Source: Chromera velia
Lineage: Eukaryota
Length of the DNA: 49,537 bases
Assembly (NCBI GenBank): GCA_018398765.1
Contig: JAHBMJ010000358.1
Span: 1 to 49,537 of the forward strand
Direction: 5' to 3'
Part shown: positions 4,333-44,300 of the stretch, one piece after another
How positions within the stretch are numbered: position 1 is the stretch's first letter
Layout of the letters: each line of letters starts with the position of its first letter
Notes under the pieces: generated by a model
Seen by the model: the letters and a program-made list of their open reading frames with translations, nothing else
Database searches by the model: none
What the model was told of the DNA's origin: nothing
Program-made: the position numbers and the translations under genes

Positions 4333-4404
4333 ATGTGTGTATGTGTGTATGTGTGTATGTGTGTGCGTGTGCGTGTGCGTGTGCGTGTGCGTGTGCGTGT
4401 GCGT

Positions 4405-4448
<44 letters not shown>

Positions 4449-4491
4449 GTATGTATATGTGTGTGCGTGCGTGTGTATGTATATGTGTGTG

Positions 4492-4523
<32 letters not shown>

Positions 4524-5693: not shown

Positions 5694-5792
<99 letters not shown>

Positions 5793-7280
5793 AGGTGAGG
5801 TTTGAGGGTCCCCACTTTGAGGCCTACAGGACGCTGTTCGACTCTGCCAAGGCGGCCTTCAGGGCAGCTGCAGCTGTGAGTCTCTCAAAGAGGAAGTTCA
5901 AAAGGGGGGTTGGGGAGCCTCGGTTGAAAGATGCCTGAGAGTACTTTTGAATAGCCACAGATGCAAACAGAGGTTTTTCCGAATACAAGATGTCTGAAAT
6001 TCCCACTTGCGATGTTCTTTCGTTCATCGTTTTTGTTTCCGACGGCTCGAGAAAATTTTCAATAAATCGGTAATTTGAAGGCAAAATCTCTCTCAAAAAA
6101 GTAACCTCCTGCCATTACTCCATCTTGTGTGTCGGTTCGACTTGCTATCTTTTTTGTCCCATTGCAGGTGAGTGACGATGCAGTGCTGCGGAATTATTCC
6201 TCCGTCCTGGAGTGCCTCCTGAGGGTGCGGCAGTGCTGCTGCGATGCGAGGATGGTGCCTGTGGAGAGATTGGAGAGCGCCCGCAGAGTGCTAGCCGAAT
6301 ATTCGGATCGTCTCGGGGGGGGAGGGGGGGGAAGTAAGGGAAAGCCCGTCCTGTCTGCCGAGGAGGCAAAGGAGCTGTTTGAGAAACTGAAGGGCGCGTT
6401 GCATGGCGACGGGATGCGGGTGGAGGGAGCGGATGCGGGGGGGGGGGGGGGGGAGTCGGCAGCAGAGTGTGCGATCTGTTTTGAGGTTGCCACATCGGGC
6501 GTGTTGCGTATCATTCGTAAGTGTCGTCACTGTTTCTGTGCAGAGTGTCTGGACAGGATTCTTGGGAAGGCCCGAGAGGGCACCTTCAGGTCGATGAGTG
6601 CGTCTGCCAAGTGTCCCTTGTGTCGGCAGCCCTTCGCTGCAGCTGACTGCCTTGGACTTGAGTCTGTAGAGGCTGCACTCCCCTCGTGCTCTGCGGGAGA
6701 GGGGGAGGGGGGTGGAGGAAGGAAGACAAAAGAGGAGAAATCTGTGTATCCTGCCAGTCCCAAGACCGTGGCCCTGCTGGAAGGGTTGCGAGAGATGAGG
6801 GCAGGGGATGGGAGTGCAAAGGCTGTTGTGTTCTCTCAGTTCACCTCCTACATGGATTTGCTTCAAAGGGAGATGAGAGAGGCGGGGGTCGAGTGTCTTC
6901 GCCTGGACGGCTCCCTTTCAATGCCTCGTCGTCGTATGGTTTTGTCGTCTTTTGAATCCTCAAAGACCGTTCAGGTCCTGCTTGTGTCCACAAGGGCTGG
7001 GGGGGTGGGGTTGAACCTCACCGCAGCCAATTGGGTGTTTTTGATGGATTTGTGGTGGAATGCGGGGGTTGAAGAGCAGGCCATTGACAGGGTACACAGA
7101 CTAGGTCAGAAAAAGGAAGTGAGGGCTGTGCGTTTTGTGTGCGGGGGGGACAGCGTGGAGGAGAGGATTCTGGAGGTGCAGGCCCGGAAGGCCGCGCTAC
7201 AGTCAGGAAGCATGCAGAAACTGTCGGAAGAGGAAATCCGAAAACTCCGAATGGCAGACCTCAGACACATCTTCGACTGA
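1543..7280 (+). CDS. Rad5/HLTF-like SNF2 DNA helicase and RING E3 ligase (HIRAN + SNF2_N + RING + HELICc), 7 exons
   Basis: Inferred exons 1543-1888, 2296-2435, 2741-3794, 4141-4187, 4855-5409, 5795-5875 and 6168-7280, all GT-AG. Motifs: HIRAN (IVGCRYY...[16 protein letters not shown]...QVGHI), [34 protein letters not shown]3HC4 RING (CAIC...CRHCFCAEC...CPLCR), [24 protein letters not shown]. Small N gap at 3061-3063. Confidence 0.95.
4238..4562. repeat. Compound intronic microsatellite (CT)n-(GT)n-(GCGTGT)n
   Basis: Directly visible. Similar tracts lie at 2230-2265, 5697-5790, 27170-27285, 9087-9160, 35590-35680 and 46070-46200. Confidence 0.95.
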
Positions 7281-10254: not shown

Positions 10255-11973
10255 TTACTTTTCCACTTCAGCGCCTGGAGCCAGGACCAGGACCCCGCTG
10301 TTGTTTTCGTTTTCCTCCTCCCCTTCTTTGTGCCCCTCATATCCCAAGCCTGAACGGATGTGATCTCGAGGCAGACCGGTGACAGGGCTAGTCAGGTGCT
10401 GAAGGGGGGGAGGTTCGATTCCTGAAGAGGCTGCCATCGCACTCGCACGTCTCTCAGCCAGCAGCGTGTTGCTCCAAGAAGTCCGCACATAGTACACATA
10501 GCTGCAGGCAGGCAGGTAGGCAGGCAGGCAGGCAGGCGGCAGGCAGGTGGTGCATGAGAATGCAAACATCATATGCGCATGCATGCAGTGAGATTCGCTG
10601 ATACAGAAGGGAAGGAGGGATGAACGAATGGAATAGAAGGGCGAGAGAGTGAGTGAAGGAAAGGCATTTGGGGCGGTGGGGGGAGGGGTTGAATGAGGGC
10701 GTCCATCACCAAACGAATGAGTGCGAGGACGAAAAAGTAAAGGAAACCACTGGAACTGCATGTCATTGATGGCCTGCCAGTATCCTTTCATGAGACAAGA
10801 TCGCCTGTATTCATTCCTCAAATCGCTAAACGTATCGATGAACTGACGCACGCGGAGAAAGAGAGTTTGGAGATCAGGTCCATGCACGAGAGCACGATCA
10901 CCTCCGCCTGTCCTGGAATTGCCCTGACTCCGTTGGGCCCAATCAGCCAGGCGATGGGAAAGGTTATCCACGTGACCACCACACACACGCAGATGCCCCG
11001 CATGTGGGATCTCCCTGCAGACACGCACGCAGGTGGGCAGATGGGGGGGGGGGTACTCATAGGTGTTGGGCAGATGCGCAGCAGCAGAAAGGTATGAAAG
11101 CCGCGAAGGAAGGCAATCAACTTTCCTTCAAGGTTTGAAAGGCACTCTGCAGCTTCCTGAGCGTACATAATGCAATAAAAAGAGTTTTCGAGAAAAGCAA
11201 ATATCAAATGCTTGTCTTTGTCTTGTGAAGGGGTCTGCGACAAACCTTTGAAAAGGGATTCCTTGTTCTCTGAAGTCTCGCGGACTGCCCAGTCGAGGTT
11301 AATTACCAGGAGGGTGAAGAATAGAAGGCCAATTCCGAAGGCCATCATTCTGTAGTGATACTCCGGGATTGCGTTTGCCCAGAGGCCCATGACCAGCATG
11401 AGGAAGGTGCAGAGAACCAACTCAACCTGTCGCTGCATCTTGCTGCGTGCAAGCAGCGAGACCTGCCACGCGAGGAGGGGACAGGTGATGACGAACTGGA
11501 CGAATCTGCATCGGAAGTTGGATATACATGCAAGCATTCGTATTCACGAACTTCCAACTGAAGGTGCGTACAGTTCTGGCATGGGTTTCACTTTTGTCTG
11601 ACCTTCCAAGGTCGTTGCGCGTGCAGTTTGAGAAGATCACGTCGTCTGCCTGGGAGAGCATGATGAGGTTGTGGCAGCCCGAGAAGAGCATAATGTACCC
11701 ATTCAAGCTGGTGCACATAGAGAACACAGCCAGTCGGTCATCTTTCACATGAGGGTCGGGAAATCGGGTCCAGTAGAACAAGCCCACCAGCACAAACAGG
11801 GATGCTTGGCCAACACGAATTCCGAAGGTCAGAGTGCTCATGGGCTCGATAGCGTCGTCGGCAATGCACTCAGCAAGGTAGTCACGGGTCGCCTCCGCAA
11901 GGGAGGGGACGGCCATTACGGCCCATGCCAGAAGAGGAATGGAAAGGAAGCGGGTCATGTTTGCTCTAAACAT
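10255..11973 (-). CDS. Type-1 (microbial) rhodopsin, channelrhodopsin-like, 346 aa, with N-terminal signal peptide
   Basis: Exons 11973-11603, 11505-11246, 11014-10852 and 10501-10255 join in frame through GT-AG introns (1041 nt). Helix C RFVQFVITCPLLAWQ aligns with bacteriorhodopsin RYADWLFTTPLLLLD. Helix F is WITFPIAW and helix G is DLISK (Schiff-base Lys). Seven hydrophobic segments follow the leader. Confidence 0.93.
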
Positions 11974-13249
11974 CTGACCTACTCTGCAAAAATCAATCAG
12001 CGCGAACCCTTAAACTTTAATCTGCGCTAAGTGTTCGTATGGAGAAATTTAGACAGGCGAGAAACTCGGACAGCTTAGTGTCTTGAAGTGTGAGCCGGCA
12101 TCAGTGGACGAGGCTGTGGGAAGATTGAAAACGCTTCGGTGGATCAATGCGTGCATTCCACGCTATAATTATATAGCTGCACAGCATGCACAGTGACATG
12201 CATTTTCATGCAGGCAGTTCTGCAGCTGCATGTGAACAACACCATTTGACTGTTGCAAAAACAACAGTTGCTAAACAACACTTGCCAAACAACAGCAAAA
12301 CAACAGTTGTCAAACAACAGACAACAGACCATGCACTGTGTCAGGCAGTTTTGAAACAACCGTTGTCGGTTATTCTATAGCAGGACTGAGGATTTTGTCA
12401 CCCCTGTCATAATTATCGATACGCGCGCGCGACCTCGCGGATGCACGCGGGCCCTTGCAAGACTTGTAAAAATTTGCACTCAAGTCCAGAGAATCGGATT
12501 GGTCACAATTCATCAGTCAATAAATGAATCTATTCATTCTAATGTTCAGTTCAATGGTTACATCATCTATTCATTCTAGACTTCATAGTGCTACTGCAAG
12601 TGTATGTTCGCTTGGTTCTTTCTTCTGTTTTGGACTTCGACTTTCAGGGTTGAGTTGAGCTGTGACTGACCTGCATGCACATGCGTATGTGCGGCGAAGG
12701 GCGCCGCCACTTTTATAATAATAATTCTGTCAGGGGTGATTATATCTGTCTCGCTCGAATTGCGCACCCATTTTTTGATCTGTTCTATCCTCAGTCCTAC
12801 TATTCATATACATATATACTCCAACTAGGTTGCCAGTTGCCAGTTTGGCAACTTACAGTGCAAACAACAGTCTGGCAAACAACATTTAATCCGTACGCGG
12901 TACAACAGCTGCGAACTGCATGTTCGTTCTTCTCATTCCCAACACTGAGTCTGTTGACACCTGTCCTATCTTTCTGTATATATATGTGTCAAAAAGCAGA
13001 CAGGTGTGTTTGATTACCAGACAAAGCAGTGCCTTTGTACCGAAGCTTCAGTTGGAATTCCACAGTTTCGAAACACTTGCGATTCTCACGGATACCCTTT
13101 TGTCACTTGGCGAAATTGCCATGTATACAGGCAAGCAATATGTTCCGAACTTGATGTGAAAACCTAAACGGGTTGAACAAATTTGAGGCTTTCTTACGAA
13201 GTGAGCATAGACAGTGCATTCTGATCGGCGACCGTGCTCAGCTTTCTTC

Positions 13250-14146
13250 ATGGCTTCCAACTGGAAGTTGCAGTTTGTGCCGGCTGCGGAGCTTGCACGA
13301 TGTTTGGATTCCATCAGAACTGTAAAAGCGCTTCTGCTCGAAGCTTTTGGAGAAGACAGCGACATTGGACGGTCCGAGACCTTCAAAAACGCAGAAGGAA
13401 GAGAGGTGATTGAGTGTCTCCTTGGGTTTCACAGTTTTGAGGCCACTAGCTTCCTAATCCTCTGGAACCGGGGCGCAAGAGGGGACCAGAGGGACTGGCA
13501 AGCCGTTGGTGCGGTACAGTTTGTAAATACTGTGCTGACCGTCTATGTCTGCTCCCTTGCAGTGAAACCGTCCCATCGAAATCGTGGCATTGCAGGTGGG
13601 CTCTTGAAGGAAGTTGCAGTCATTGCTGCAGACCAGCTGGGAATCAGGCAGGCAACAGGGACAGTTGAGAGTCGCCTCACACATCTCGTTCGGTACTACA
13701 CCCGTCTGGGGGGGGAGGTGGACGCTTCCGCGTCTGCGGGAAGCGCCCCCCCTGCACTGCTGAGGATTCATAGAACAATTAAGGATGAAGAACTGGAGAA
13801 GTGGAGAAGCGGGACGCACAGGCAGGCATGGGAGTCTGCGAGTGGAACGTATGGACTCTCATCGTGCTATCAGATGTTGTCAGTGCCACTTGGACGTTCC
13901 GTAGGTCATTGGTGGAAAAGACTCGTAGATCTGAAGGACACAGCAGCCACGGGTTTCTCTTCTCTTTGGAGAAAAAGACTCAGCAGGCTGAGACTGACTC
14001 GGCAGTCACCAGCAGGAAGTGATCCGCTCCGCTTGAGCTTCTCCCACCAGTTGATACTACTCCTTGCCCCACTGGCAGCAATTTCTGCACTAATGTACAT
14101 GCGGTTTAACAGAAAAAGACAACATTTCACTACCGTAAGAAAGTGA
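13250..14146 (+). CDS. GNAT-family acetyltransferase with a C-terminal transmembrane anchor, single exon
   Basis: Acetyl-CoA binding motif A (VCSLAVKPSHRNRGIAGGLL) and a motif-B-like LVRYYTRLGG. C-terminal hydrophobic LILLLAPLAAISALMYM followed by a basic tail. ATG at 13250. Confidence 0.8.
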   Translation: MASNWKLQFVPAAELARCLDSIRTVKALLLEAFGEDSDIGRSETFKNAEGREVIECLLGFHSFEATSFLILWNRGARGDQRDWQAVGAVQFVNTVLTVYVCSLAVKPSHRNRGIAGGLLKEVAVIAADQLGIRQATGTVESRLTHLVRYYTRLGGEVDASASAGSAPPALLRIHRTIKDEELEKWRSGTHRQAWESASGTYGLSSCYQMLSVPLGRSVGHWWKRLVDLKDTAATGFSSLWRKRLSRLRLTRQSPAGSDPLRLSFSHQLILLLAPLAAISALMYMRFNRKRQHFTTVRK

Positions 14147-16838: not shown

Positions 16839-17711
16839 TCATGATGCAGGGATAACACTGTTGTAGTGCTCTCCCAGAGAGAGCAGATAACGGTGATAAG
16901 ACAGACGAAGAGGAGCGAGGCCCTCTTTGAGAAACTGTTCTCCGTATGTGATCTCTGGATTCTTCTTACCGCTGAAGATCGTCACAGGACGCCCCAGGGC
17001 CTCTGACAACGCACGCACCTCCAGCTCCCCCCCCCACTCTGTGGTCGATCTGATCGTCTCACAGTACTCAGAGAGCCCCTCCTCAGTCTGACTCTCCTCA
17101 TCTAAGTAGGGAAGGAACTCGTCCTTGTGCTTCAGGATGAACTCTGCGCAAAGACGCCTCATCTCCTCAAAGGACTCTGCCTTGCCGCCCTCAGACAAGG
17201 AGAGCTGGTGCCCGAATGCGCGGTACAGACAGTTTCCGTCTGCCGCAATCTCGTGAATCTTCAGGTTCTTCTCTGCCAACTGGGCATCGATGTCTGCATT
17301 CTCTAATTCTCCAAGGGATGGGTCATCCCCCAATTCTTTCATGATCTGTTCTCGTCTCTGCTTCTCCTTCTCACTCTTCCTGTTCTTTTTCTTCTGAGAT
17401 TTCGAAATCTCTTGCGGCTGAGAGCCGTAAAGACTCAAGTTCTCCATGTTCAACGTGCCCGCGGCGTCTCCAGCTTGATCGGTTTCTGCCGTCTCCTGCT
17501 GATAAGCAGCCAACTCCTCCTCATGTTTCTTCAACAAATCTTCCTCCTCTGCCTTGAACTTTTCTTCTGCTTCTCTCTTATCTTTCTTGTTTTTGATTCT
17601 TGCCGTCTCCTTCTTTGCCCTGTCCTTCAACTCTTTCAACTCCTTCTTATGACGTTGAACGACCTTACCCCTTCCAGGGCGCGCGCTTTCGTTGTCCTCC
17701 ACGTCTGACAT
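16839..17711 (-). CDS. OTU-domain deubiquitinase (OTUD6B/Otu2-like), single exon
   Basis: Lys/Glu-rich N-terminus (QRHKKELKEL), catalytic IAADGNCLYRA, WGGELEVRALS and LSYHRY...LGEHYNSV. ATG at 17711. Confidence 0.93.
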   Translation of the reverse strand: MSDVEDNESARPGRGKVVQRHKKELKELKDRAKKETARIKNKKDKREAEEKFKAEEEDLLKKHEEELAAYQQETAETDQAGDAAGTLNMENLSLYGSQPQEISKSQKKKNRKSEKEKQRREQIMKELGDDPSLGELENADIDAQLAEKNLKIHEIAADGNCLYRAFGHQLSLSEGGKAESFEEMRRLCAEFILKHKDEFLPYLDEESQTEEGLSEYCETIRSTTEWGGELEVRALSEALGRPVTIFSGKKNPEITYGEQFLKEGLAPLRLSYHRYLLSLGEHYNSVIPAS

Positions 17712-18749
17712 GGCTTCAAGTGTATCGAACAAAGCCAAGGTCACACGCCCGCCAAGAGACTTTCAGAGTCAGTCTGAGAATCAACTCAACTCCTTTCTGG
17801 CTGGCACAAGCAACTCAGTGTGCATGGAAACGCTATATTATACACGTATCGAGAAAGAGGGGAGCTTGGTGATGCTTGGTGGGGCGCGCGCATCAGTTAT
17901 GCAGGATGCCACTTCCACAGGCTCCAGTGGCATGCCGGGGCCCAGCAAAAAATCCTCTGGACCAAAGCCTCTTAGTATTAATCCTCTGGGCCATCTTACA
18001 AAAAGACTGTCTGGAGTCTGGACGATGAAAGTGGAAAGACTATCATGCAAACAGACAGAAAGATAGAAGTGGCGAGTTCGTTATTCAATTAAGCACGAAA
18101 GATGAAAGTGAAGAGAAGTTTAATGTTTGCATGTTTATTTTGGTTTGTTCTTATACTATTCCACAACCATTCATAACTATTCAAACCATTTTAAGTTCTA
18201 TCATTTTTTTTTTTCAAAGTTCTTTATCTATCTTTGTCAAAAGTATTCAAAATTTGGTAAATTACCCATAGTGGTACATAAATTATAACTGAAATTACGC
18301 AAGTTTACACATTTTTTTTTCTTTTGTTTCTATCTCTAATTTTATATGTCCAGCTGCAAATGGGGCTTTGAATAAACATAAGTCTTTTCGGTTTTCCTAC
18401 TAAATCTCTTCCCAACAAGAATTTTACAGAAACGTAAACTTGTAATGTATTGCTATGGTGAATATGTTGAAAATTCTGCTAGAAATTCCTTGTGAGGAAG
18501 TCTTTGTTGTTTTTTGTTCAAATATTGTAAACTCCATCCTCCATCCTCCTCCAAATGATTCTGCTTTAAATTTCATATTTTAGAAAGACAAAAACATTCT
18601 TTGTGGTCCAGGAAAAGCCAACATCCAAACATATGAAAACAGAAAAGAAAACTAGAGAAATGAAACTGAAACAGACGTTAGCTTTTGTATGGAATTATCA
18701 ACCAGACGAGATTTAGAGCATATTGTTTGTTCCAATGAGGGGTCATACA

Positions 18750-19920: not shown

Positions 19921-20979
19921 GTTCAACGTCTGCATGTTTATCTTCATATAGGACTTCTGGCCTGAAGATTTGATCTTCTCACCATGTGTCCAGACAGAAG
20001 CTTGATTAAACTGTGTATACAGAGTTCGTAATAAGGTCAGTCAAAAAGCTGCTGTTTAGCTGTACGCACAGACGCAGGATTGACTGCAAATTTGGACCTA
20101 CTGGTGGGCCTGTTACCTCTATCCTGCAGATATACAGGAGAATGTGCAGCTATGTCTGTCTCATACCAGTTCTTTTTTACCATCGAAGATCCTATAACTT
20201 AATTGAATGCATTGGCGTGGCCGAGATCGATCTTGTGCCATGCACCGGCGTCCCGCACATATTGCTTGAGGGGCACGTTTCTCTCTGCATGTTGTGCGGA
20301 GGGATGGATTGTTTTCTCGCGACCGTTCGCATGGAGCCCGCCATGCGTGACGGATAATGATTGAGGGTTTTTTCATGCATGCCGCGTCCCCATATATGAG
20401 AGGCGGATCGGTGGGTGTCGCGATCAGCTAGGCTTCACTCGCGCGCGTTACCCGTTGACCCAGGTCGCGGGGGTATACAGAACTAGACAAGAACCGAGGC
20501 CCTGGGCCCCGGCAAGCGGGGATTAGCCTGGCGATCCGAGACGGCAGTCTGATTCTCACCCCGGACAGTCCCCGTTCATGCATGCAGATTCATGCGTGCT
20601 GCGTGCAGAGTTTTGTTAGCCGGGGTGATGCCGGGGTGACACTGCCTGCATGAATTATTCATCGGCCCGCACAAATCAGCCAGGTGCAGAAATTTTCGAT
20701 CCCTTTCCTCAAACAGACCTCCACCATACCTCCACCTTGGAAAAGCAGTACAGCTGCGGCAGTAACAGCAGTAATAGCAGAGTTGTGCATGAGTCGTTCC
20801 ATTCCCCTAGCGTCGCTGGACCTATCAAAGTGGTCACGTTGAGGTTGCAGTTTTTTTCCCTTGCTGGTGCTCCTTCGTTGACCTTCTCCCCTCGTCTCAG
20901 GGAGAGGAAGCACTGCCCCACTTGACGGGGGCTTCTGTCCTGTTCCTGTCCACCCGCGTTTTTCTGGCTGTCAGTCAAA

Positions 20980-23900
20980 ATGGTGCGGGTAATGTTGAAG
21001 GGAGGGGTGTGGAAGAACAGCGAGGATGAAGTGCTGAAAGCCGCTGTTATGAAGTACGGACTGAACAACTGGTCCCGTGTCGCTTCTCTTCTCGTTCGCA
21101 AATCTGCCAAACAGTGCAAGGCGAGGTGGTACGAGTGGCTAGATCCCTCTGTGAATAAAACAGAGTGGACGAGGGAGGAGGATGAAAAGCTTCTCCACCT
21201 GGCCAAACTCTTCCCCACCCAGTGGCGAACGATTGCCAAGATGGTTGGCCGCACCGCCTTTCAGTGTCTTGAGCGCTACGAGCGCCTGCTCGATCAGGCA
21301 CAGGGCAAAACCGAAATGGACGAAAACGATCCCAGACGTGTGAGACCCGGGGAGATCGATCCCCACCCCGAAACCAAACCGTCGAGGGCAGATGCAGTCG
21401 ATATGGATGATGACGAGAAGGAAATGCTGTCGGAGGCCCGTGCCCGTCTTGCCAACACAAGAGGTAAGAAAGCGAAAAGGAAGGCGAGGGAGAAACAGAT
21501 GGAAGAGGCAAGGCGTCTAGCGACTTTGCAGAAGAAGAGAGAGTTGAAGGCAGCAGGAATCCAACTAGGCCAGTGGAAGCCTAAGAAACCCGGTGTCGAT
21601 TACGGAAAGGACATTCCGTTCGAACACCAGCCCCCAGCAGGCTTCCATGAGGTGGGCGCTGATGAGCGTCCCGAAGGCAATTTGAGTTTTGCAAACATTA
21701 GCCTTCAGCACTTGGAGGGGAAAAGGAGGGATGATGAGGATGCCCGACACCGAAAAGATGATGAGAGAAAATTGAAGAGACTCAAACAGGATAACCTCCC
21801 CCAGGCTATTGACATGATAGCCAAACTGAATGACCCAAACTATCACGTGAAAAGGTCCAAGCTTTCCCTTCCCAGCCCATCCCTCCAAGACCATGAGCTC
21901 GAGGAGATTGTCAGACTCGGGGGCAGCGCTGCTTCAGTTGGGGGTGGGTCGGTGTCAGGGGGGCATGCCCGGACCCTGGTGGATGATGCTGCCTCCGCTG
22001 CCGGTGGGGGGCTCAGCGGGCTCACCCCTATGCGCACCCCCAAGCAAGACAATCTGATTATGATCGAGGCACAAAACGCAGTAGCCCGAATGTCTGCCCA
22101 GACTCCTCTCGAGGGGGGGGAGAACCCCGAGATCATTGAGTCGGGCCTCGGGGCCTCCCGGACCGTCATCCCTTCCCGTCCCGGTGCCATGAAGACCCCC
22201 AACCCCCTGGCCATGCAGCAGGGTAGACAGGGGGCGGGGGGTGCCACTCCCGCACCTTCTGCCATTGGTCTTCCTTCCTATGCAGGGGGGGCGAGATCGA
22301 TGTCGGGGGCAACGCCCATGACCCGACGGGGGGGGGGGATGTTTAGAGATGACGTGCAAAGCATCCATCCTCAGTCCGAGATGGGGACCGAGAACCCAGA
22401 AGCAGACGAGGCAATGCTGCGTCTCCAGGTACGCACGTCTCTCGCGAACCTTCCGAAACCTCAGAACGAGATTGAAATTGCACCGCCTGAGGTGGATGAA
22501 AACGGTGACACAACCATGGGGGGTGTGGGGGGTGAGATTGAGGAGGATGCAGAGGATATTGCGAAACGGAAGGAGGAGGAGGAGAAGGCCCGATTGGAGA
22601 TGGAGAGACGGAAAAGGTCCAAGGTGGTGCAGGCGGGGGGTGTTCTTCCACGGCTGTTGTTCGTCAATACCCTTGTGTTGACTCCTACAGAGGGTGACAA
22701 GACAGGCAAGGGGGCAGAGGAACTTCAGGCCGCCGAGGCCGAAGTCCTTGATGAGATGAAGAAGCTGATCTTCCGTGACGCTATTGAGTTCCCACCCACC
22801 AGGGATGCTCCTCGCCCCCCAGAAACGCCGGAGGTTGAGGATATCTCCCTCGAGGCTCTCGAGAGAGCCGCTGCCGAGCTAGACGCCGAGACCGAATTCC
22901 TGCAACAGCAGATGCAGCATGTCGATGTGGCAGAGGAGAAGGTGATGAAGGCGTGGCAGGAATCGCTGGATGCGTTCGCGTATGCCCCGTCTCAGAAACG
23001 GTCAGTCAAAGAGTGGACTGAGCAGACTTGACACACATCAACTGCAAGTGGGGGAGGGCGGGGCTAGTAAGTAGCTTGGGAGAGATGGAATGGGAAAAAT
23101 CAGGAATGGCGGTTGCTATAATGTCTTCTGAATAACGAACCTTCCCTCAGCTCGTGAGCAGTGTCTGCCCGTTTGCCTCTCTCCGACTGGCTTCGACAGC
23201 GTCCCTTCATCCATTCTTTGCTCCCTCATTTCGCCCCGTAAGATTGCGATCAGCTCCCTTCCTTCCGGTGTTCCCCTGCATTCGATTGTGCCTGCCTGAA
23301 AGAAATTTCATCTCACTGAGGTACAAAAAAGTGATGAGAAGTTTTATGCATTCAAGAAATAGCGAGACTCCTTTTTCCAACCTCTAAGACAGGATTCCTT
23401 CTGCTTGTTCATGTGTCAAAGCCATTGTTTATTTTACACCGCCTTTCTGTCTGTGTCTGTCTGTCTGTCTGTGTATCTGTCTGTGTATCTGTCTGCAGGT
23501 TCATCCCAGCCCATCAGCTCCCTCGAGGGGATCGGGTCGAGACTGTGCGCCGTCAGCTGGATGAGCTGAGGGACCAGCTGCTGCGAGACAGCGAAAGGAG
23601 GACAAAGCTCGAGCAGAGGTTGGGGGTGAAGACCCACGGGTATATGAAAAGATCGAGAACTGCCCTCAAATCCACCGAAGAGCATTTCAAAGCACTCCAG
23701 GACGAGGAGATGAAATACTTCTCCTATGCCTACCTTCACGAGATTGAAAGGATGGCCGTCCAGCGGCGTCTGGACGAGGAGAGGGTGCGGGCAGAGAAGA
23801 CGTCTGACAGCCACGCGCAGCTGCAGGCGTTATTTGCGAGACTGAAAAACGACAAGAGAGACCTCCTCGATGCCTTGCAGCACGCAAACGCAATAGAGGA

Positions 23901-29059: not shown

Positions 29060-32000
29060 ATGGAGGTTCCAGAGGGGCTGCGACATCTCTTTAATGAGAT
29101 CTCGCTAGCGTGGCACGCCACCGCCCTCCGGGCTCTCGACATCGCAAAGAAGTACGCAGAGACGGGTAATGCGGGAAGCCGGCAGGGAACACGACTGGTT
29201 GTTTGCAACGCCGACGAGTTCCTTCTTGCCAACAGCGCCGAGCCCGACGATCATTTGCAGTCTGCCCCCGAGGGAGCAGGAGGGGAAGAGAAGGAAGAAA
29301 AGGGAAAGGGACAGAGGTTGACAAAGTATGGGGGTGTGGAGGAGGGGAATATCCGCAAATTCCCTAAAGATATCAAGACTGAGGAGGGAACGAAAACCCT
29401 CAATGAAAGAATGAACGACGACGGGGCGCTGATTATCGACGGCCTGAGTGGAGAGTTTCGGGCCTCGGGTTTCCGTCTCAAGTACGGAGGGGACGCCTCC
29501 TCCATCGGGGGGGGTCTTGGGGCGGCTTCCTCTGAGGAGTGTGCGAAAAGGGCGCGCGCCTTCGTCCTTGCTGTCTCTCACGATGGGGCTATCAAACTCT
29601 TTGCCGGGCAGGCCAAGCCCGTGCTTTGGAAGGGCGACACAGAGGTGCAGCCTCTGAAGCTTCGCCAGAGGTACCCCCCCAGCCTGAAAGTGGGAGGGGA
29701 CAATTTTTTTGGCCGGTCGGGTCCTCTGGACGAGTTACTTGGGTGGGTCCGGGGGGGGGTGAGAGGTGGGGGTCCCTCAGGTTCAAAGAGAGAGGAGAGG
29801 GAAGGAGCTGAGGCGGAGTCCCCCCCTTTCATCCGAATTTCAGGAATTGGGGGAGTCGGAAAGAGCCAGCTGGCCGCCGAGATGCTCCACCGCTGCGACG
29901 TGCCCCGCACAAAGATATGGCTGGGAGCATCCTCTCGCGAGCATCTGCACGGAGAGGTGCAGGAAGTTTGCAATCTCTTCAGATCAGCAGGGGTGCCAAT
30001 GGATGGTTGTCGGGATCTATGTGAGTGGCTAGAGACAAACAGTCACTGGATTCTGGTGGTGGACAATCTAGAGGACCCAGAGTTGCTTTGGGAGTTCGTT
30101 CCAAGAAACCACACGTGCACAGTCGTCATCACCTCCCGTGATGACGCACGCACGATGCGCCCCCCTCCCCGAGAAGTAAAGCTGGATACCCTTCAGCTCC
30201 CCGACGCACAGACCCTCCTGCAAACTCTGGCAAGAGAACCGAATGACGCGAGTGGTTCCGAGAAGCTCGCCAGGGCCCTCGGATGCCTTCCTCTGGGTCT
30301 TGTAATGGCCTCCTCTCTCGTGCTGGAGAAGCGGGGGACGCTGACATTCAGCGATCTGGCTGAGACTGTGTCCGCGGAGAGGGGGGAAGTTCGGGATTTT
30401 CTTCAGAAGAGGGGGGAGATCCAGAAGTGGACCGAATACCAATTGAGTGTGATCAGTCTTTGGCGGCAACAGCGGCAGTTCCTCTGTGAGGGGGGCCTGT
30501 CGAGGGCTGCCACTCTGATGGAGTGCCTCTCGTTTGCCGACCACCGACAGATCTCGATTGAGACATGCGAGACCGTGGGTTCACTCTCGTTGTCCGCTCA
30601 GCTGTTTGTTGCAACTGCATTCTGCGTTCCGGATCGTGTCGTGAATTAAAGAGGAGTAAGATTTCTAGACGAAATTCGTTTTTTCTTCAGCAGTAGTGCA
30701 GATCTTTGCCCCTCTGCAGTGGCTACTCAATGGGTCTGGTTTTTCTCGTGATCGCTCATTGATAGATTCTCTCATTACGGCAACTCTTATTGATGAAGGA
30801 AAAGCAAGTCGGCATTGCGTTAAACAGAGATCAAACGGTCATTTTGATGTCTGTGTGCAGGTGTACGAGACATGCAGAGAGAGAGACGGCGAGGAGGCAG
30901 GACAGGGATTCCACAAGTGTCTGTCTGAGCTTCTCAAGCAATCTCTTGTAACACAGCTCTCTCACGAAAGACCTAGCGAAAGACACAAAAACGAGTTCGT
31001 TGGGGGGGGGAGAGTATCGATTGAAGTGGAAGACGAGCCCCCCCCCCAAAGATGGAGAACGAAAGGTGGTTTACCATCCATGAGCTGACCCACCTTGCAG
31101 TCCGCACAGAGTTAGAATGGGGTCAAGCTTCTAGGGAGGGGGGTGAGGATGCAGAAGGTCATCTAGCCGGCTTACTACGGAAACGAAGGATTTTCAATTT
31201 GATGGTGCACGCCATGATTGTGGGCAGACGCACACAGAAGACGGGGCGGTGGGAGAGGGAAGAACTGTTTTGCCGTTTCCCGACCCCCAACGGACGACAC
31301 ACTCATCAACTTGAAATACTCAACCGGTGGTCGAAGAGTTGGGATGAGCCATGGGCATTCATAGAATCTCGAGAGGTTGAGATGCTCATGCTGTTATGCT
31401 TCTGGTTTGAGAGGCTGTTCTTTCAGGACCATTGGAGCTCGGCCATCAAACGGCCCTGGTTGGTGAGGGAGATTGAAACCAGGTGGCCTGAAGAAGAACA
31501 TGACACAGAAGAGGAAGAGGGGGTGATCGTGAGAACACTTGTAGGGGAAGTGAAAGCCGTGCTGTTGGAGCTCGCTTATGAGCCCAAGGTAGATATGGCA
31601 AAAGTCGTTACGCTCCTTGCCCATCTGGTCAGAAGCATCCTATGGGGTCAGAACTGGTGGCAACAGAAGTTCTTCCACGAGGTGATCTTGATTCGACTTA
31701 TCAGTCCCTCCAAGTCCCTCCCCCTCCCTTTCCTGGTTCGAGTCGTGAAACCGTTGCTCCCCTTCATGAAAGAGCCCAAACTAGGCTTGCTCCTTGCGGA
31801 TCATCACTTGCGCAATGAAAAGGGCACAGAGGCCTGGAATGCAGTTTGGACTATGTGGCAGGCCTACACAAGAGCAGGAATGCACGAAGGCCCACACATG
31901 GCAAGCATAGGGAGTAGGTTGAACAGGATAGCAGACATGTTGGAGAAGAAGACAGCAACCGCTTGGTCGTCGCCCGAGATGGCAATTCTCCTCTCGTCCC

Positions 32001-34376
32001 CTGCACTTGAGCTCAGAGAGTTCACAGGAATGGGGAGGATCAAGAGAGGTCTGCTTTTCTCTGACCTCGTGTGCAAGGCCATGATCGAGTGGCGGCTTGA
32101 TCGAAATGTCCGTGCCGCAGAGAGCCTCCAAATGGCTTCCTCCCTCCTTCCGACCGAGTGGGACTCCGACAGACTTGCTGCCGAATTTGCCACCGATAGC
32201 GCTTCTGACTCCGCTTCTGAAAGTCTTCCGACCAACCCTCCCCTCCCCCCGATCCCCGACAATATCGCCGTTGACTCTTTGATCTCATTCTTTGAGCTCC
32301 GGAGTGAGATGTGGTGGCATCTGGGCACATGCAGGGCACTCAGAATTGCCGAGCGGTACATGCAAAGGGCAGCCGCAGTCAGCCTGGCGGCATTACATGA
32401 GTATACAGCCGCAGAGAAGCGATTTGAGGAAGACCGACGGTTTGCGCGGGTCCTCGAGGCACTCGAAGAGGGAGAGAAAGGTAATCTGCAGAGCGCTCTT
32501 GAAACGCTCCAGCCCCTCCTGAAAGACTTTGAAATCGCCGTCCAAAAAATGAGCAGCAGCCCACCATGGTCAAAGTGGACGCTTCGATACTTCCTTTTTC
32601 TGCATTTGGCGCAAATGCGCCTGACAGGGGATAAACAGAGCACAGAAGTAATAGACGGTCTGAGTGAGTTCTTGACTGCAGAGCGGCTGAAACAGGGGAT
32701 GGAGCATTACTTGAGAAATCGCGAAGATCCCGTAAAGCACGGATTCGAATTTCTGGACCATTATGTATGGGATGCTGTTTCGGAACTTTTGGAGGAGATG
32801 GGTGAGGGAGGGCAGCGCTCTGCCGGGGACTTAGAACAGGCAATAGAATGCGTGGTGACGATTAAGATGCCCCGGCGCAAGCAGGACGGTGAGTGGTGGG
32901 CAGGGCTAGGAGGTCGGGCTTCATCTGAGGGCTCGGAGCCTCCTGTCGAGTGGCGGGTCCTGCACCCCCTCAATCGTGCACTCCTGCATTGGATGATAGA
33001 AACCTCCGTGGGCCTTCTGCGGAGACGGGGGGAGTCGGAAAGGCTTGCCAAAGTGCTCGCCCTTGCGCTGGAAAAGAAACCTGAGGAGGTGGGGGACGTG
33101 GATGCGGCGGTTGCAGAGCTGAGCAAGCTCCGCAGAGCCGCCTGGAAAGAGACAAAAGCAGCTCTCCAGCTGAGGAGCGGGGGCACTTGCCGCCCTCTTT
33201 TGCGACAATATCACGAGACAGTGGAAGACGACAAGCTGAGGCAGGCACACAAAAACGGTACGTCCTGAGGCGGCAGAGCCAATTAAAGGGAAGCCTACTG
33301 AAGCAAAAGGACAGACAAAGACAGACAGAAAGCATGACGTGCGGAAGGAACACATAAAAGCAAACAGCATTCAGGCCAGGAGGCAGAAAGGTAGGGAGGG
33401 AGGAAAGGAAGGGAGAGGGGGAGAAACGAAGTATTGAAAGAAAATTATAGACAGAAAAGTGAGACGAATGGGGGAAGGAGGGGGGCATGAAAAGAAGCAC
33501 GGGGAACGAAGAAACACAACAAACTGTCTTTTTTGTGCTTAAGATTTCCGGGATTCGGCCACATGTATAGCAAGATCCACCTGGCTTTTTCGACTCTTCC
33601 CCCTCTTTTTGACATTCTTTGCGCTTAATTCCCTCCGCCCCTCTTCCTCATCTTGTGTGTGGCATCATGCAGAGGGTTATCGAATCCACAAGGAACTCCC
33701 GGACTCGGAAACCACAAAGTATCCCATTTTCTTCAAGGCGTTGTGTGAGGAACCACTCGAAATCAATTGCAGAAGAAGGGAGCCTAGCGAGAATCTGGGG
33801 ATGTGGTTTGCCCAAGCACTGGATGGGTTTGGTCACTGGGAGTATAGCATCGCTACTCGCCTCGGATTGGTCGAACTTCAAGCTCCGTGGGCTGCCAGAG
33901 CAGAAACAAGCCCAGGTGACCAAGTCCCAGATGAGCCGGAAGGAAGCTCAGCTGTCTCCGTCATGTCTCATCCCCTTTCGAGGAAGAATGTGGGGAATGG
34001 GCCAGATACACCGGTTAATTCGGCATCTGAGACTCGGGTGGCAGCGAGGCAGAGTTGTGAGACAATGTTTGCTTCTCTTGGCCTACATCCCCCCTCCCGA
34101 CTGCATCAACGGACGCCGGTTCAGTTGGAGGAGATCCTCCCGTCCGGGAATCTCTTCGCGTCAGAAACTGACAAGAAAGAGGTTTTTGCAGCCTCGCAAG
34201 CGCTGCAGGTCGAGCTCTCTCAGACAGTCTCAACTGCTGAGATTCGATCTGGTGCAGCTGCGTTCCTGAGAACCTCGGGGGTTCGGGGGGACTTTGACGC
34301 TCCAAGTGTAGGAGAATTGTTGTCTGCTGTGATCTGTGTTTCACGCATGGGGAAGGAGGGGGGTGGGAGAGGGTAG
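29060..34376 (+). CDS. NLR-like STAND NTPase: DisA_N/DAC-like domain + NB-ARC + winged helix + helical/TPR-like region, ~1540 aa, with one apparent frameshift
   Basis: Exons 29060-30574, 30861-33257 and 33673-34376. NB-ARC motifs: FFGR, Walker A ISGIGGVGKSQLA, Walker B WILVVDNLED, VVITSRD, GCLPLGL, LSELLKQSLV and MHD-like FTIHEL. N-terminal DAC-like motifs: QGTRLVV, DDGALIIDG, GLG, FVLAVSHDGAIKLF. The frame changes at the C10 run 31038-31047. Confidence 0.85.
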
Positions 34377-39500: not shown

Positions 39501-42500
39501 GATCTGGTTCTTGAGTGTACCTCCCTCCAGGTCATCTTCTACTCCCGAGCCCAACCACCTCAAGTGCATCTACTACGGGGTCGCTCACCTATGGAGGAAG
39601 CATGTGAAGTGCATCGCTTACGGTGTCTCACCTCATGCTGATTGCTCTACTTACCCAGCGATCGCTCACGTTTGCGGTTGTGGCAAGCAAGGGCACCTTG
39701 ATGCCATGTGTCCCTCCAAGCTCCGTGCCTCCAAGAAGGCCGCCAACGTTCACTGCGCAACCGTCTCTTTTGCTTCTGCTGCCGTTACCTCCCCCGATTT
39801 GGTCCACGGCCCTCATTTCAGCAAGGACGACGGGGCAACTGTCGAGGCCGTCGGTAAGCTCTACCTTGAAAAGGTCTCCGCCTCGGAGTCCATCACTTAC
39901 ACCGTGAAGGTACTCAACACCCCAGTCCTTGTGCGGACTGCTGGTCACAACGACTCCTCTGAGGCTTCCGGGGCTGTCGTTTATACCACCCACTCTGTCA
40001 CGCTCGATGACGTTATCTTCGGCGACCACCTTGAGTCCATTACCTTCCTCATCCTTCCACAGTCTTCGATCCCTTTCCTCTTCTCGAAAGCCCTTGCCCA
40101 GCGGCTCTCTATGAAGATGGATTACAAAGATAATGTTATGGTGATCCTATCGCCCTCTGGGCCTGATGTCACCTTGACATGGATCGAGCTCGGGGAGTAT
40201 TACGGCCTCCCTCTCGTCTAAGATGACAATTCTCCACCTTCGTTGGTGGACTCAGATGAGTCCGACGACGAGCGTCCCCCCCTGGAGGATGATCCCAATG
40301 AGTCGGAGGACGAGATCGATAACTCTGCCCCCTTCCGTCCTCTTCCTTTTGCCATGTGCACAACCACCTCTCCCATCACTACCCCTGCTTTACACTCGCC
40401 TCCAGAGGGCATTGCGGGTGTCGGGGTTTCTGTGTCTACAAGAGAGGCACCTAAGGGAGTGTATGTTTGTGTGTCTTGAAGAGAGACACCTGGGGGCGTG
40501 TGCATGTCTATGTGTCCGGAGGAGGCGTCTGTCCCCTCTGGAGAGGGAGTTGAGGGATTGAAGGAGCCAGCGTGTCCAAGCGGGCTCACAGGTGGGGCAT
40601 CCACTACAGCGCAGGATTCTGTGAAAGCAACTACTGGCGGTGATGTCCCTTCTCTTTCTGTTTCTTTTTCTGATGATCACGATTCTCCCCCCTCTGAATC
40701 TCTCTCTGTCGATGAATCTGAACCTTCTCTCTCTGAGTTTGAGTTTTTTCAACTCACCGTGACGTTTACAATTCAACTTAAACAGACAGGCACAGTCAAG
40801 ATTTTTACTGCTTCTGATTTTTGGGATTTGGTTCGCGGGGTTCATTGCGAGTGTACGCATGCGGGCATGAAGGAAGTGATGGCTCAACTCCTCTTTCATT
40901 TCAGAATCTCTTTCGAACTCCCGCTCACTACCATTCGAGCGTGTGTCGCTCGTGTTCTCTCTTCTTGCCCTGAGTGTCCACAGGTGAAGGGCCTGGTTAG
41001 TTTTTCCATCCCCGATGTCTCCTTCACTAAGGGGGCATACGTGAGGGTGAGGCTACACCTCGACAGCCTGTATTTGGGGGTATCTGACTGCGGTCCGACT
41101 CATCAACTCACGGTGCTGGAGGATTTCCTCCCTTATGGCCTTGCCCCTCGCTTTGCTGCTCACCCCAACAGCTACAAGACTGTCGCTTTCCTTGAAAACG
41201 TATGGTTCCCTCGTTTTGGGGTCCCAGAGGAGATCCGATGCGACCAGGGGTCTAAGTTTGCAAACGCCTGCCTCATTGAGCTCTCAAAGCGTCGGGGCTT
41301 CCGTCTCTCATTTGTGCCCTCCAGCTACAAGGACGGCAACTCTTTATCCGAACGATGGCAGAGAGAGGTGCTTGCCTCCGTCCGCTCTCTCCTCCTCAAG
41401 CGTCAGCTCCCCGGCAGTTCATGGCCTGAGATCCACGATGAGCCGATTCGACATTTGAACAACCGAATGTCAGTGCAGGGGGGGGGTTCTCGTCATGCAC
41501 ACAGCCGCTGCCCTCCCTGGTTCGCTGTCTTGTGTTCACCGTTCTTTCCCCTCTGCCCGCCCTCCCCGCCCATCTGCTTTGCAGACTTATTGTGTGGGAG
41601 ACATTGCTATGTATAACTAGGGCGCCTCTGGAGGGGGGGGTCAATCAGGTCAAGGTCACAAGTGTGGCCCCGTTTGGGCCCTCTATCGCGTTGTCTCTGT
41701 TGAGAACGAACACTTCTACAAAATCGTAGCCACCGATGAGTCCCTCCGCCCCCAACGGACCACCGCATCGCCTCACCAGCTCCGTCCAGCCGTCCGCCCT
41801 ATCCTATCTGGCATCAACTTTGAAGCGCACACAACCTAATCCCCAAGGTGCTACTTTGGCCAAACGCGTAGAATGAAGAGATTCCGCCTCGCTTCCTTCC
41901 TCCGCTGATGCTGCTCTAAGTCTGCTTCAGGAACAGGAGGCAGCAGCCTTTGTCCCCCTCTTTAGTCCCAACCCAATGACTGAGTCCCCCCCCGACACCG
42001 TAATAGTCCCTGTGCCCCCGATCCCTGCCCCTTTACCTCCTGCTGACTTGCCTGCTGTCCATACAACGGACCCGCCTCTGTCCTTGCAGCCCACTCAGCA
42101 GCCGATCCCCGAGTCTGCCCCGCCGGCAACTCCCCCTCTCGCCTCTCCTTTCCCTATCCCGCCTGCTCCGCTGCAGCCAGGCACGATATGGTGATTGGTC
42201 GTTCCCCCGAGCATTCACTCCTGTGGGTAGGAGAAATCCTTGGTGTCCTGCCGAGTGATGGAGCAGCAGAGGGTGATGTCCGGTATGAGGTCCATGCGTG
42301 GGGTTCCCACCAGCGATGTGCTCTGTCCCGCAGGTAGTGGGCACCGGGCTACTATTCCTCGGAAGGGAGGTATGTCTCATACGATAAGTGCGCTTTCAAG
42401 CGTCTGGCAGAGATTGTTGAACTGTCGCACGGTCAGATCGCGGCAGCAGGCTTCGAGATGGAGCGTTTGCAGGGCAATCACGGGTCTCGTCTTCCCCTTT

Positions 42501-44300
42501 CTCTCTGCTCTCATTTTGCCTCTAGCTCGGATTGGTATCATTTTTATGAGTATTCAGGTGCTCGTTTGTCTGACCCTTCTGTCGCATCTGCTGTCGCTTT
42601 TCTTGCTTCTATTGATCTGTCGGTGCATGCTGCAATCACATACCGACCAGTCAGTTTGAAACATCTGTGTTCTGCTTCCTGTCAGCTTGTCTGTTTCGCA
42701 GACCAGAAGGAGGATCAGGGATGGATCGATCGGGAGGTCTACATCAGGACTCCGATCTCTGAGGTCCTGAGGAACGTTCCTCACATCCCTCTCCTCCGTG
42801 TGCGCACCGAGAAGCTTCAGGACAACAGCACACGCAAGTTCAAGACGCGTACCGTCATCAATAGCAAGCAGGTCCCTTGGGAGGGTTTGAGTGTCGCCAC
42901 CCGACTCTGCCCCCCCGAAGCTGTGCGCATTGTCCTGCAGATTGCGTTGAACGCTTGCAAATGTCAAAGCGTCGACCTTTCCCTTCAGAAGGCCGATGTC
43001 GTGCAGGCGTACCTATAAGCCCCGTTGCTTTCTGATCGCCTCCCCCTCGCTGCTATCCCCCCTTCCGACCACCCAGACCATGGGCGGTTTCTCTGGGTCC
43101 TCCGCAAGGCCGTCTACGGCTTGCCCGACGCAGGCAAGGTCTTCGAGGATTTTTTTACCTCCGTCCTCCGCTCCCTTGGATGGGAGCCAACGCTCTTTCT
43201 GGGCATGTGGGTGTTGCGTCGTGCCGATGGTGAGCTTTGTGCTCTCCTGGCCACCTACTGTGATAACCTGCTCATTCTGGGCATCGGGGAGGATGCGGCA
43301 GCTACCATCGACCCCCTCAAGGACATCGAGACGTGCGGCAATTATACCGATCTCTCAGAGGGTCGTTTTGTTGGTGTACAGTTCGACATCTCCACCACCG
43401 GCGTGTTCTGCCAGCAACATGACTACGTTGCCTCCCTTGTCCTCCCTCCTGATATGGCCGGCTCTGACCGACGTGCAGACAAGCCTCTCCCTGTCGGGTC
43501 TACGCATGAGGATGATACCTGTCTTCTGCTGTCTGCCGCAGGTGTGAAGGTCTTCCGAACCTTGCTCGGGCAGGTAGGCTACATGGCAAGCTGCATACGG
43601 CCAGATGTCACTCTCGCGCACTCCTACCTGTCACGTTTTTTGGCGTCCCCGACCGAGAAGGCTCTTCGTCTTCTCTTCCAAACGGTGTGCTACCTCCGTT
43701 TGCACCCATCTCTTGGGATCCACGTCCGTCCTTCCTCCAACCCGACCAAGCTGACTGCCATCAAGCACGGGGACTCATCGTTTGGCAACGCCGCCTCCCC
43801 ACATCCTCAGACGGGCTGGGTTGTTTTTATTAACAACTCACCTCTCATTTAGAAAAGCAAGAGGCAGTCCCGCGTAGCAAGATCCACTACAAGAGCAGAA
43901 GCGCTCGCTTTGGAGGAAGACATCGACGCCGCACTGCATTTTGCAAACTGCACCGCCCCCTTCTACTCCAACATCCGTATCAGAATTGGCTGCGATGCAG
44001 CGAACGTTTTGTCTCTGCTGTTGTCTGGCGCCTCTTCTTCTGCCGAGCATGCCCTCCTCCCCATTATATGGGAGATGCAGGACAAGGCTTGTGTCGTTCC
44101 CCTCCAGGCCACCACTGACTTGGTCGAGCAACACAGGATTGGCATCTTCAAGATCCCTACCGAATCTAACATCTCTGACCTCCTCACGAAGGTGCTCGAC
44201 CTTGGCGCTCTAACTTGACAATGTCTCATGAGTCCCTCTCCCTCTCTTTCTCCAGTGTTTGGGAGCGAGATTATGTCTTCTCTTCCTCCTCTCGCTCTGC
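36562..44300 (+). pseudogene. Copia gag-pol pseudogene
   Basis: Pro-rich gag; knuckle CGCGKQGHLDAMC; integrase HCECTH...CPEC, LHLDSL, IRCDQGSKF, SER; RT ADVVQAYL, LRKAVYGLPDAG, YCDN; RNase H GDSSFG, STTRAE, IGCDAA, NISDLLTK. Several in-frame stops and frame changes are present. Confidence 0.9.
37433..39189. mobile_element. Non-autonomous TIR DNA transposon (1757 bp) nested in the copia gag
   Basis: ~50-bp TIRs (AAGTCCCTATGCT...GCTGAAGTCTGACCTTT, with its reverse complement ending at 39189) and a 4-bp TSD TACG (37429-37432, 39190-39193). Removing it restores the gag frame (LYLGPYE/SRVRKCW). Confidence 0.9.

What the first reader, a model, noticed from the sequence alone, without database searches (positions are those of the whole stretch)
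29060..34376. Eukaryotic NLR-like protein with a diadenylate-cyclase (DisA_N/DAC)-like effector domain
Seen: a spliced gene whose first ~185 aa carry, in order, QGTRLVV, DDGALIIDG (DGA at 29420-29428), GGGLG and AFVLAVSHDGAIKLF. A complete NB-ARC module and ~900 aa of helical sequence follow. Established: this motif order matches DisA_N/DAC domains (GALIV, DGA, GLGTRHR, AIVVSEE-G), which make c-di-AMP in bacteria and archaea and need two domains face to face. STAND NTPases oligomerise on ligand binding and thereby activate N-terminal effectors such as TIR, HeLo or nucleases. Inference: this is a protist immune receptor that couples sensing to a cyclic-dinucleotide-type module. I do not know of a characterised eukaryotic DAC-NB-ARC fusion, but I cannot confirm novelty without a search.
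Basis: partly seen in the sequence, partly recalled or inferred. Interest (0 to 1): 0.9.

Follow-up and report, generated by a model that had tools for sequence, protein, structure and literature searches.

The report
Protist NLR-like sensor with remodelled cyclase
This spliced protist gene joins a domain predicted to have the fold of the bacterial c-di-AMP-making enzyme, but missing its key arginine, to a likely immune-receptor switch, so clustering of the receptor would likely trigger an altered nucleotide reaction rather than ordinary c-di-AMP synthesis.

Summary
The fusion is real. Residues 3-195 have the diadenylate-cyclase (DAC) fold: model pLDDT 84.6, Z 14.2 to DisA, and all 6 matches with Z>=5 are DACs. 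They share one open frame with an NB-ARC domain that keeps its core motifs. RNA-like contigs join both introns. Three more DAC-like + NB-ARC clusters are named Chromera velia proteins, one with a transcriptome record.

(1) The domain keeps DGA, the pocket Ser and an acid at the metal position, but lacks the R-H of RHR, as do 18 of 18 complete family domains. Published mutants without this Arg make no cyclic dinucleotide, so ordinary c-di-AMP synthesis is unlikely. (2) As assembled, a 10-C run shifts the frame and ends the spliced protein at 580 aa. One spanning contig has 11 C, giving 1538 aa.

Best reading: an NLR-like receptor whose oligomerisation pairs a remodelled DAC-fold site. Immunity, binding and catalysis are untested. 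Ten literature searches found no such fusion; the main DAC survey was unavailable.

The parts
29060..30574 (+). Exon 1 (505 codons): DAC-fold domain, linker and most of the NB-ARC module in one frame without stops
   Evidence: contigs X1-X3 cover parts of it
29066..29644 (+). DAC-fold domain, aa 3-195, with a low-confidence insert near aa 61-82
   Evidence: AF2 pLDDT 84.6, pTM 0.82; Foldseek 41 hits E<=1e-3; VIA Z 14.2 to 3c1y
29180..29194 (+). R41-Q-G-T-R45: loop and start of strand 1. R41 is R in 16 and K in 2 of 20 family domains; R45 is in the 4 NB-ARC-fused rows. Candidates to replace the lost Arg (inferred)
29420..29428 (+). DGA motif (D121) kept
   Evidence: D in 18 of 20 family domains
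29507..29533 (+). Gly-rich loop GGGLG followed by AASS, where DACs have G-L-G-x-R-H; R-H absent
29576..29584 (+). S173-H174-D175, aligned to the S-E-E motif; Ser kept, acid kept at the metal-binding position
29702..30565 (+). NB-ARC/STAND module: Walker A 29843, Walker B 30053, sensor-1 30122, GxP 30281
   Evidence: Pfam NB-ARC; NF040586 E 2e-26 aa 215-502; AfsR E 1.3e-4; positions
30575..30860 (+). Intron 1, 286 nt, GT..AG, phase 0 (reported joint 30573->30860; the one-base shift to GT..AG is my reading)
30861..33257 (+). Exon 2: rest of the winged-helix region, then helical repeats
31038..31047 (+). Run of 10 C that shifts the frame in this assembly; contig X1 has one more C
31076..31087 (+). 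IHEL, MHD-like end motif of NB-ARC (identified by eye), behind the frameshift
   Evidence: motif name recalled
31088..33257 (+). Mostly helical region, putative sensor; TPR-like is a weak lead only
   Evidence: AF2 pLDDT 39.1; Atlas TPR clusters 0.81-0.85, recognition low; no Pfam hit at cut-off
33258..33672 (+). Intron 2, 415 nt, GT..AG, phase 1
   Evidence: joint in 3 of 4 runs; phases match
33673..34376 (+). Exon 3 to the stop codon, about 234 aa, no family match

Best explanation
The gene encodes a predicted DAC-fold domain lacking the RHR arginine, fused to an NB-ARC switch and a long helical tail, and it likely acts as an NLR-like receptor whose clustering would pair the DAC-fold domains into a remodelled metal-nucleotide site with a reaction other than ordinary c-di-AMP synthesis. 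Shown: the fusion, splicing, motif state, NB-ARC match and paralogs. Predicted: the fold. Inferred: a trigger binds the helical tail, the NB-ARC swaps ADP for ATP and oligomerises (established STAND behaviour, recalled), two DAC-fold domains meet face to face, and D121, S173, D175, the Gly loop and perhaps R41 or R45 bind and process ATP or another nucleotide. The product and the downstream target are unknown.
For: Fold; profile hit to S. aureus DacA E 0.0035. The pocket is conserved across two separate subclades: D121 18/20, N119 18/20, G154 19/20, S173 18/20, D175 15/20, where two partial rows are gaps at the last two positions. Review PMC7288161 section 2.3 names Asp, Ser and Glu at these motif positions as ribose, phosphate and metal ligands and says two domains must face each other. 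NB-ARC motifs are intact. The fusion recurs in 3 more clusters at 41-62% identity in the DAC-like part. Between this sequence and the contigs, 15 of 30 coding differences are synonymous, pN/pS 0.30, p 0.0012. Other family members sit beside COR-A, a weak GTPase match or a long low-complexity, coiled-coil-like tail (by eye), partners that commonly dimerise (recalled).
Against: R-H is absent in 18 of 18 complete domains. RHR->AAA abolishes CdaS activity, and R105A abolishes both products of PanS, so any catalysis needs an unshown substitute. One NB-ARC-fused paralog (P0017) has lost the DGA Asp and part of the Gly loop, so the pocket is dispensable in at least one fusion. The Chromera subclade lacks two His residues conserved in the environmental subclade. 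The sensor region is poorly modelled. The assembly has a frameshift. No immune data exist.
Confidence: 0.4

Rival explanations
1. The DAC-fold domain is a catalytically dead pairing module. Activated receptors would recruit other proteins that carry the same domain (GTPase-, kinesin-, kinase-like and coiled-coil fusions), much as death-fold domains do, possibly gated by a bound nucleotide.
For: Loss of the essential Arg. The same organism name carries the domain on unrelated proteins P0007, P0008, P0009, P0011. P0017 keeps the fusion with a decayed pocket. NB-ARC-fused and other Chromera domains are not resolved apart in the tree.
Against: Acidic and Ser pocket residues are kept across two deep subclades, more than a bare scaffold would need.
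Confidence: 0.3
2. It is a working diadenylate cyclase that makes c-di-AMP or cUA on oligomerisation, with R41 or R45 replacing the lost Arg.
For: Fold, DGA, Ser and acid are kept. Defence DACs with reduced motifs (DGF, GGR) are active. R/K at position 41 in 18 of 20 domains.
Against: Even minimal PanS keeps the Arg, 100% conserved across that paper's bacterial DAC alignment. 8 of 8 prokaryotic best matches picked by the family profile carry R-H. Nothing here places R41 or R45 at the phosphates.
Confidence: 0.12
3. The domain is an integrated sensor or decoy. It binds bacterial c-di-AMP or a pathogen factor and switches the NB-ARC on, rather than carrying the output.
For: A pocket kept without the catalytic Arg fits ligand binding. 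Integrated decoys are known in plant NLRs (recalled).
Against: It occupies the N-terminal effector position and is the only N-terminal domain; a long C-terminal helical region is already present.
Confidence: 0.1
4. This copy is a broken allele, or a non-immune regulator of the AfsR/FxSxx-TPR STAND type, and the DAC-fold domain is a relic.
For: Frameshift in the assembly; only 1 of 4 runs has a listed contig that spans the run and shows the extra base. Nearest NB-ARC matches are bacterial regulators. PADLOC 0 of 6 proteins.
Against: The break lies in a homopolymer. A paralogous contig keeps the long frame across the same span (243 nt against 239). pN/pS 0.30. Three more clusters keep the fusion.
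Confidence: 0.08

Closest known systems
DacZ/CdaZ-type diadenylate cyclases (PF02457 with DacZ_P/DacZ_A)
   Same: Top Atlas structure rows, TM 0.65-0.67. The N-terminal loop and strand 1, DGA and Ser align. The best prokaryotic profile match is 36.8 bits.
   Different: No R-H; no DacZ_P or DacZ_A match in Pfam; fused to NB-ARC; separated from 22 sampled prokaryotic DACs by a long 100/100 branch.
DisA (T. maritima 3c1y, M. tuberculosis 9y4s) and CdaA/DacA
   Same: Fold: Z 14.2, rmsd 3.0 over 135 residues, 16% identity. Activity depends on two domains facing each other.
   Different: RHR absent. The oligomer would come from a STAND NTPase rather than DisA's helical spine.
PanS of PanDA/Panoptoo and DS-2C/CdaG defence DACs (PMC13640721; 10.64898/2026.08.10.743927)
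   Same: DAC fold used in immunity, with a remodelled active site and altered product.
   Different: Bacterial two-gene or CBASS-type operons that keep the catalytic Arg. PanS is constitutive and has no STAND domain. Neither text mentions eukaryotic DACs in my term searches.
NB-ARC-TPR NLR-like STAND proteins (AfsR 8k60, FxSxx-TPR NF040586, fungal NLRs)
   Same: Effector - NB-ARC - helical tail layout; NB-ARC match E 2e-26 and 1.3e-4.
   Different: The N-terminal domain is a DAC fold, which I did not find described for any NLR. TPR identity of the tail is not established.
UniRef A0A0G4F0C9 (Chromera velia 'DAC domain-containing protein', P0008)
   Same: Same domain family, 63% identity over aa 87-194; shows an automatic DAC label already exists for one eukaryotic member.
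   Different: No NB-ARC; the NB-ARC-fused members are labelled only 'NB-ARC domain-containing' or 'uncharacterized'.

Membership tests
Diadenylate cyclase (DAC/DisA_N, PF02457) | DAC alpha/beta fold | tested here: met
Diadenylate cyclase (DAC/DisA_N, PF02457) | Pfam score above the curated cut-off (27 bits) | tested here: not met
   no hit for aa 1-200; relatives reach 13.6-19 bits
Diadenylate cyclase (DAC/DisA_N, PF02457) | DGA motif | tested here: met
   29420-29428; aligned to prokaryotic DGA
Diadenylate cyclase (DAC/DisA_N, PF02457) | RHR motif, at least its first Arg | tested here: not met
   absent here and R-H absent in 18 of 18 complete family domains
Diadenylate cyclase (DAC/DisA_N, PF02457) | Conserved Ser and acid of (V/I)SEE | tested here: met
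   S173 and D175, with His at the middle position
Diadenylate cyclase (DAC/DisA_N, PF02457) | Face-to-face dimer | not tested
Diadenylate cyclase (DAC/DisA_N, PF02457) | Synthesis of c-di-AMP from ATP | not testable with these tools
   needs an enzyme assay
NB-ARC STAND NTPase | Pfam NB-ARC above cut-off, with Walker A, Walker B, sensor-1 and GxP | tested here: met
NB-ARC STAND NTPase | Complete winged-helix with MHD-like motif in frame | tested here: inconclusive
   IHEL lies behind the frameshift in the assembly; in frame in contig X1 and in a paralog contig
NLR-like immune receptor | C-terminal superstructure-forming repeats (TPR, LRR, WD40, ankyrin) | tested here: inconclusive
   helical, low-confidence model; TPR lead under 0.9; no Pfam or NCBIfam repeat hit
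NLR-like immune receptor | Ligand-induced oligomerisation and defence output | not testable with these tools
   inferred from architecture only
PanDA/Panoptoo or DS-2C defence DAC | Stand-alone minimal DAC or DACNG/DACNH-DAC with an adjacent effector gene, catalytic Arg kept | tested here: not met

The most novel reading that the evidence does not exclude
A eukaryotic branch of the DAC fold has rebuilt its active site without RHR and makes a new nucleotide messenger. In chromerids it is wired directly to NLR-like receptors and to other switch proteins, giving a eukaryotic NLR-to-nucleotide-signal pathway unrelated to cGAS or TIR.
Probability: 0.3. Interest if true: 0.9.

Novelty: new variant of a known kind. 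Interest (0 to 1): 0.72.

Why it matters
DAC enzymes are treated as prokaryotic and were only recently shown to act in bacterial immunity. An expressed, duplicated DAC-fold + NB-ARC fusion in a protist whose closest matches are chromerid (relatives of apicomplexans, recalled) adds a new effector type to NLR-like receptors. It also exposes an uncharacterised RH-less branch of the fold (17 rows in my tree). A 195-residue domain can be assayed directly. If active, it points to an unknown eukaryotic nucleotide signal; if dead, to a new pairing module.

Tried and rejected
Single-sequence PDB search of aa 1-200 found 0 hits at E<=10. The word-index search with P0001 1-205 among long proteins found none (weak). 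Pattern scans with the family alignment confirmed no relative among 17 viral, 113 metagenome and 74 genome stretches, and tblastn of plasmids found no match; these are insensitive at this distance. In 301 genomes of one bacterial phylum, 14 matched at 24-37 bits; no close prokaryotic relative was found in those searched, and no donor can be named. The tree's prokaryotic rows were pre-selected by a motif containing R-H, so they cannot show that RH-less prokaryotic relatives are absent. Five rows were dropped before the tree: two non-DAC chance matches, two partial second copies, one near-duplicate. The C-terminal model was too poor for a fold search. No listed run is on record as RNA; I treat them as RNA-like because contigs skip GT..AG introns. 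No contig bridges the DAC and NB-ARC parts (gap 29556-29791 uncovered); the link rests on the open frame and on paralogs. No whole genome was held, so paralogs could not be counted. Galperin 2023 (survey of DAC architectures) was not held, so I saw nothing of it. No supplements were read; those of the two preprints could bear on how far the Arg varies. No second copy of the gene is in the window. Thirty further ORFs had no Pfam hit.
Full report
Observation. The ORF at 29060-30649 (+) encodes 529 aa. Pfam finds NB-ARC at aa 252-424 (E 6.9e-6, 25.9 bits, cut-off 23.5) and nothing for aa 1-200. Walker A, Walker B, sensor-1 and GxP motifs are at 29843, 30053, 30122 and 30281 (motif names recalled). 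NCBIfam FxSxx_TPR matches aa 215-502 at E 2e-26, far below its whole-protein cut-off, and the nearest solved NB-ARC is AfsR, E 1.3e-4. PADLOC found nothing for 6 of 6 proteins.

Gene structure. Four runs of one study hold the stretch; none is on record as RNA. Their contigs skip 33258-33672 (GT..AG) in 3 of 4 runs and a 286-nt stretch in 2 of 4 runs. The tool reports the second joint as 30573->30860 with ends CG..CA; shifting it by one base gives a GT..AG, phase-0 intron at 30575-30860 (my reading). Spliced as assembled, the protein stops at aa 580. The MHD-like IHEL motif and about 970 further residues lie in another frame behind ten C at 31038-31047. Contig X1, the only listed one that spans the run, has one more C, which gives 1538 aa. 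A paralogous contig replaces the same span with 243 bases and stays in the long frame, whereas the window's distance is 239. The long form is therefore probably the true one; whether the window has an assembly error or a broken allele cannot be told. The 529-aa form is what UniRef and EukProt hold, and one X2 contig reads into intron 1 up to 30647. Of 31 listed differences, 30 are coding: 15 synonymous and 15 not, pN/pS 0.30, binomial p 0.0012 (crude site counts, one study, no transition correction). No contig bridges DAC to NB-ARC, but they share one frame.

Fold. The Atlas's own model of aa 1-205 matched DAC clusters in 9 of 9 rows shown (TM 0.65-0.67), most with DacZ accessory domains. A profile of 11 family domains hit S. 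aureus DacA at E 0.0035, and 6 of 9 hits were DACs. AlphaFold2 on that alignment gave pLDDT 84.6, pTM 0.82. Foldseek found 41 matches at E<=0.001, and every listed row is a DAC. VIA-align over 48,161 chains gave Z 14.2 to DisA 3c1y (rmsd 3.0, 135 aligned); all 6 chains with Z>=5 are DACs and the next is 4.7. The C-terminal 735 residues modelled as helices at pLDDT 39.1, with a TPR lead under 0.9; this is not established.

Family. phmmer over 1.84 billion representatives gave 12 hits at E<=0.001: the query, 7 named Chromera velia proteins, 3 from environmental or unnamed contigs, and one repetitive chance hit (P0015, set aside). Three clusters repeat the DAC-like domain plus the STAND region: P0006/P0016 and P0010/P0017 with Pfam NB-ARC, and P0005, which ends early after Walker A. 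P0017 also has an MMETSP transcript record. Four carry the domain on other proteins: a weak GTPase match (P0007), a coiled-coil-like tail (P0008, UniRef 'DAC domain-containing'), kinase-like motifs seen by eye without a Pfam hit (P0009), and a kinesin-labelled protein (P0011). Profile searches added P0020 (COR-A plus two DAC-like copies) and P0021-P0025 from 0.9-1.7 kb contigs of unknown taxon. The window is therefore probably from a chromerid (inference from the paralogs). In a tree of 39 rows, the 17 family rows stand apart from 22 prokaryotic DACs with 100/100 support, and split into a Chromera group (96/85) and an environmental group (98/92) (midpoint root, prokaryotic rows pre-selected by motif). 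No donor is shown.

Active site. In an alignment of 20 family domains with 24 prokaryotic sequences (2 of them chance motif matches), the family keeps D121 (18/20), G154 (19/20), S173 (18/20) and D175 (15/20); two partial rows are gaps at the C-terminal positions. A two-residue gap falls where prokaryotes have the RHR start. R-H is absent in 18 of 18 complete domains; one row has a lone Arg and two near-identical rows a lone His nearby. In contrast, 8 of 8 prokaryotic loci fetched by profile score alone carry R-H. PMC4568413 (passages) reports that RHR->AAA or DGA->AAA abolishes c-di-AMP formation by CdaS. PMC13640721 (abstract, results part 1, section 7, discussion) reports the Arg 100% conserved in its bacterial DAC alignment and R105A inactive. 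10.64898/2026.08.10.743927 (abstract, sections 5 and 8) shows DGF and GGR suffice and are required. PMC7288161 (passages, section 2.3) assigns ribose, phosphate and metal roles to the Asp, Ser and Glu positions that are kept here. So the pocket looks able to hold metal and nucleotide but not to run the textbook reaction. R41 (R 16, K 2 of 20) and R45 (4 NB-ARC-fused rows) might compensate; this is untested. P0017 has lost the Asp.

Mechanism. I commit to an NLR-like receptor whose oligomerisation pairs a remodelled DAC-fold site that handles nucleotide in a non-canonical way (0.40). Rivals: dead pairing module (0.30), canonical cyclase with a substitute Arg (0.12), integrated sensor (0.10), broken or non-immune gene (0.08). 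Only the anatomy is shown; sensing, oligomerisation, binding and output are inferred.

Novelty. Ten searches of the held library: diadenylate cyclase + eukaryotes + NB-ARC 0 papers; DisA-N + conflict systems + effector 0; Chromera + diadenylate cyclase 1 unrelated; NLR-like + protists terms 1, on fungal cell death. Listings showed no eukaryotic DAC-NLR title or abstract start. PMC10249747 and PMC12901056 (passages) discuss only prokaryotic DACs. Galperin 2023 was not held, and subscription journals are mostly missing, so absence from print is not proven. One eukaryotic member already carries an automatic DAC label. Earlier scan notes had nothing on this sequence but list RH-less DAC folds in other genomes, mostly described as prokaryotic (unchecked), so loss of RHR alone is not unique. 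Verdict: a real fusion, a new variant of the NLR-like kind, not a member of the active DAC family by the RHR test; interest 0.72.

Noticed in passing
P0013, P0014, P0019, P0021-P0029 (short environmental contigs): A sister subclade of RH-less DAC-fold proteins with conserved HRAGH and DGAH motifs, several with a hydrophobic N-terminal segment seen by eye. The extra conserved His residues suggest a distinct active site. Taxon unknown.
   Followed up: partly
P0012, P0020: Two tandem DAC-like copies, the second partial; P0020 has COR-A upstream (E 7.9e-6, below cut-off), suggesting a ROCO-type protein with an internal DAC-like pair.
   Followed up: partly
window 30548-30647: One X2 contig reads into intron 1 up to the stop of the 529-aa ORF. 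It may be unspliced RNA, DNA, or a short sensor-less isoform.
   Followed up: no
window 30965: In-frame 12-base deletion in contigs of 2 of 4 runs, in the linker before the C run.
   Followed up: no
window 29409-29478: Contigs of other family members (about 85% alike around DGA) are listed in all four runs, so paralogs are present in the same data.
   Followed up: partly
window 2612-7280 (+): SNF2 + RING + Helicase_C pieces with a weak HIRAN hit, Rad5/HLTF-like (name recalled); a 30-G run at 3817-3846 and short N runs nearby.
   Followed up: no
window 10821-11543 (-): Microbial rhodopsin exon, Pfam Bac_rhodopsin E 6.4e-18.
   Followed up: no
window 13211-14146 (+), 16839-17762 (-), 20926-23031 (+): GNAT acetyltransferase, OTU protease and CDC5-like Myb splicing factor: ordinary neighbours, no cluster of immune genes seen.
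   Followed up: no
window 40480-43852 (+): Weak integrase and RVT_2 matches in separate frames, a copia-like retrotransposon remnant about 6 kb downstream.
   Followed up: no
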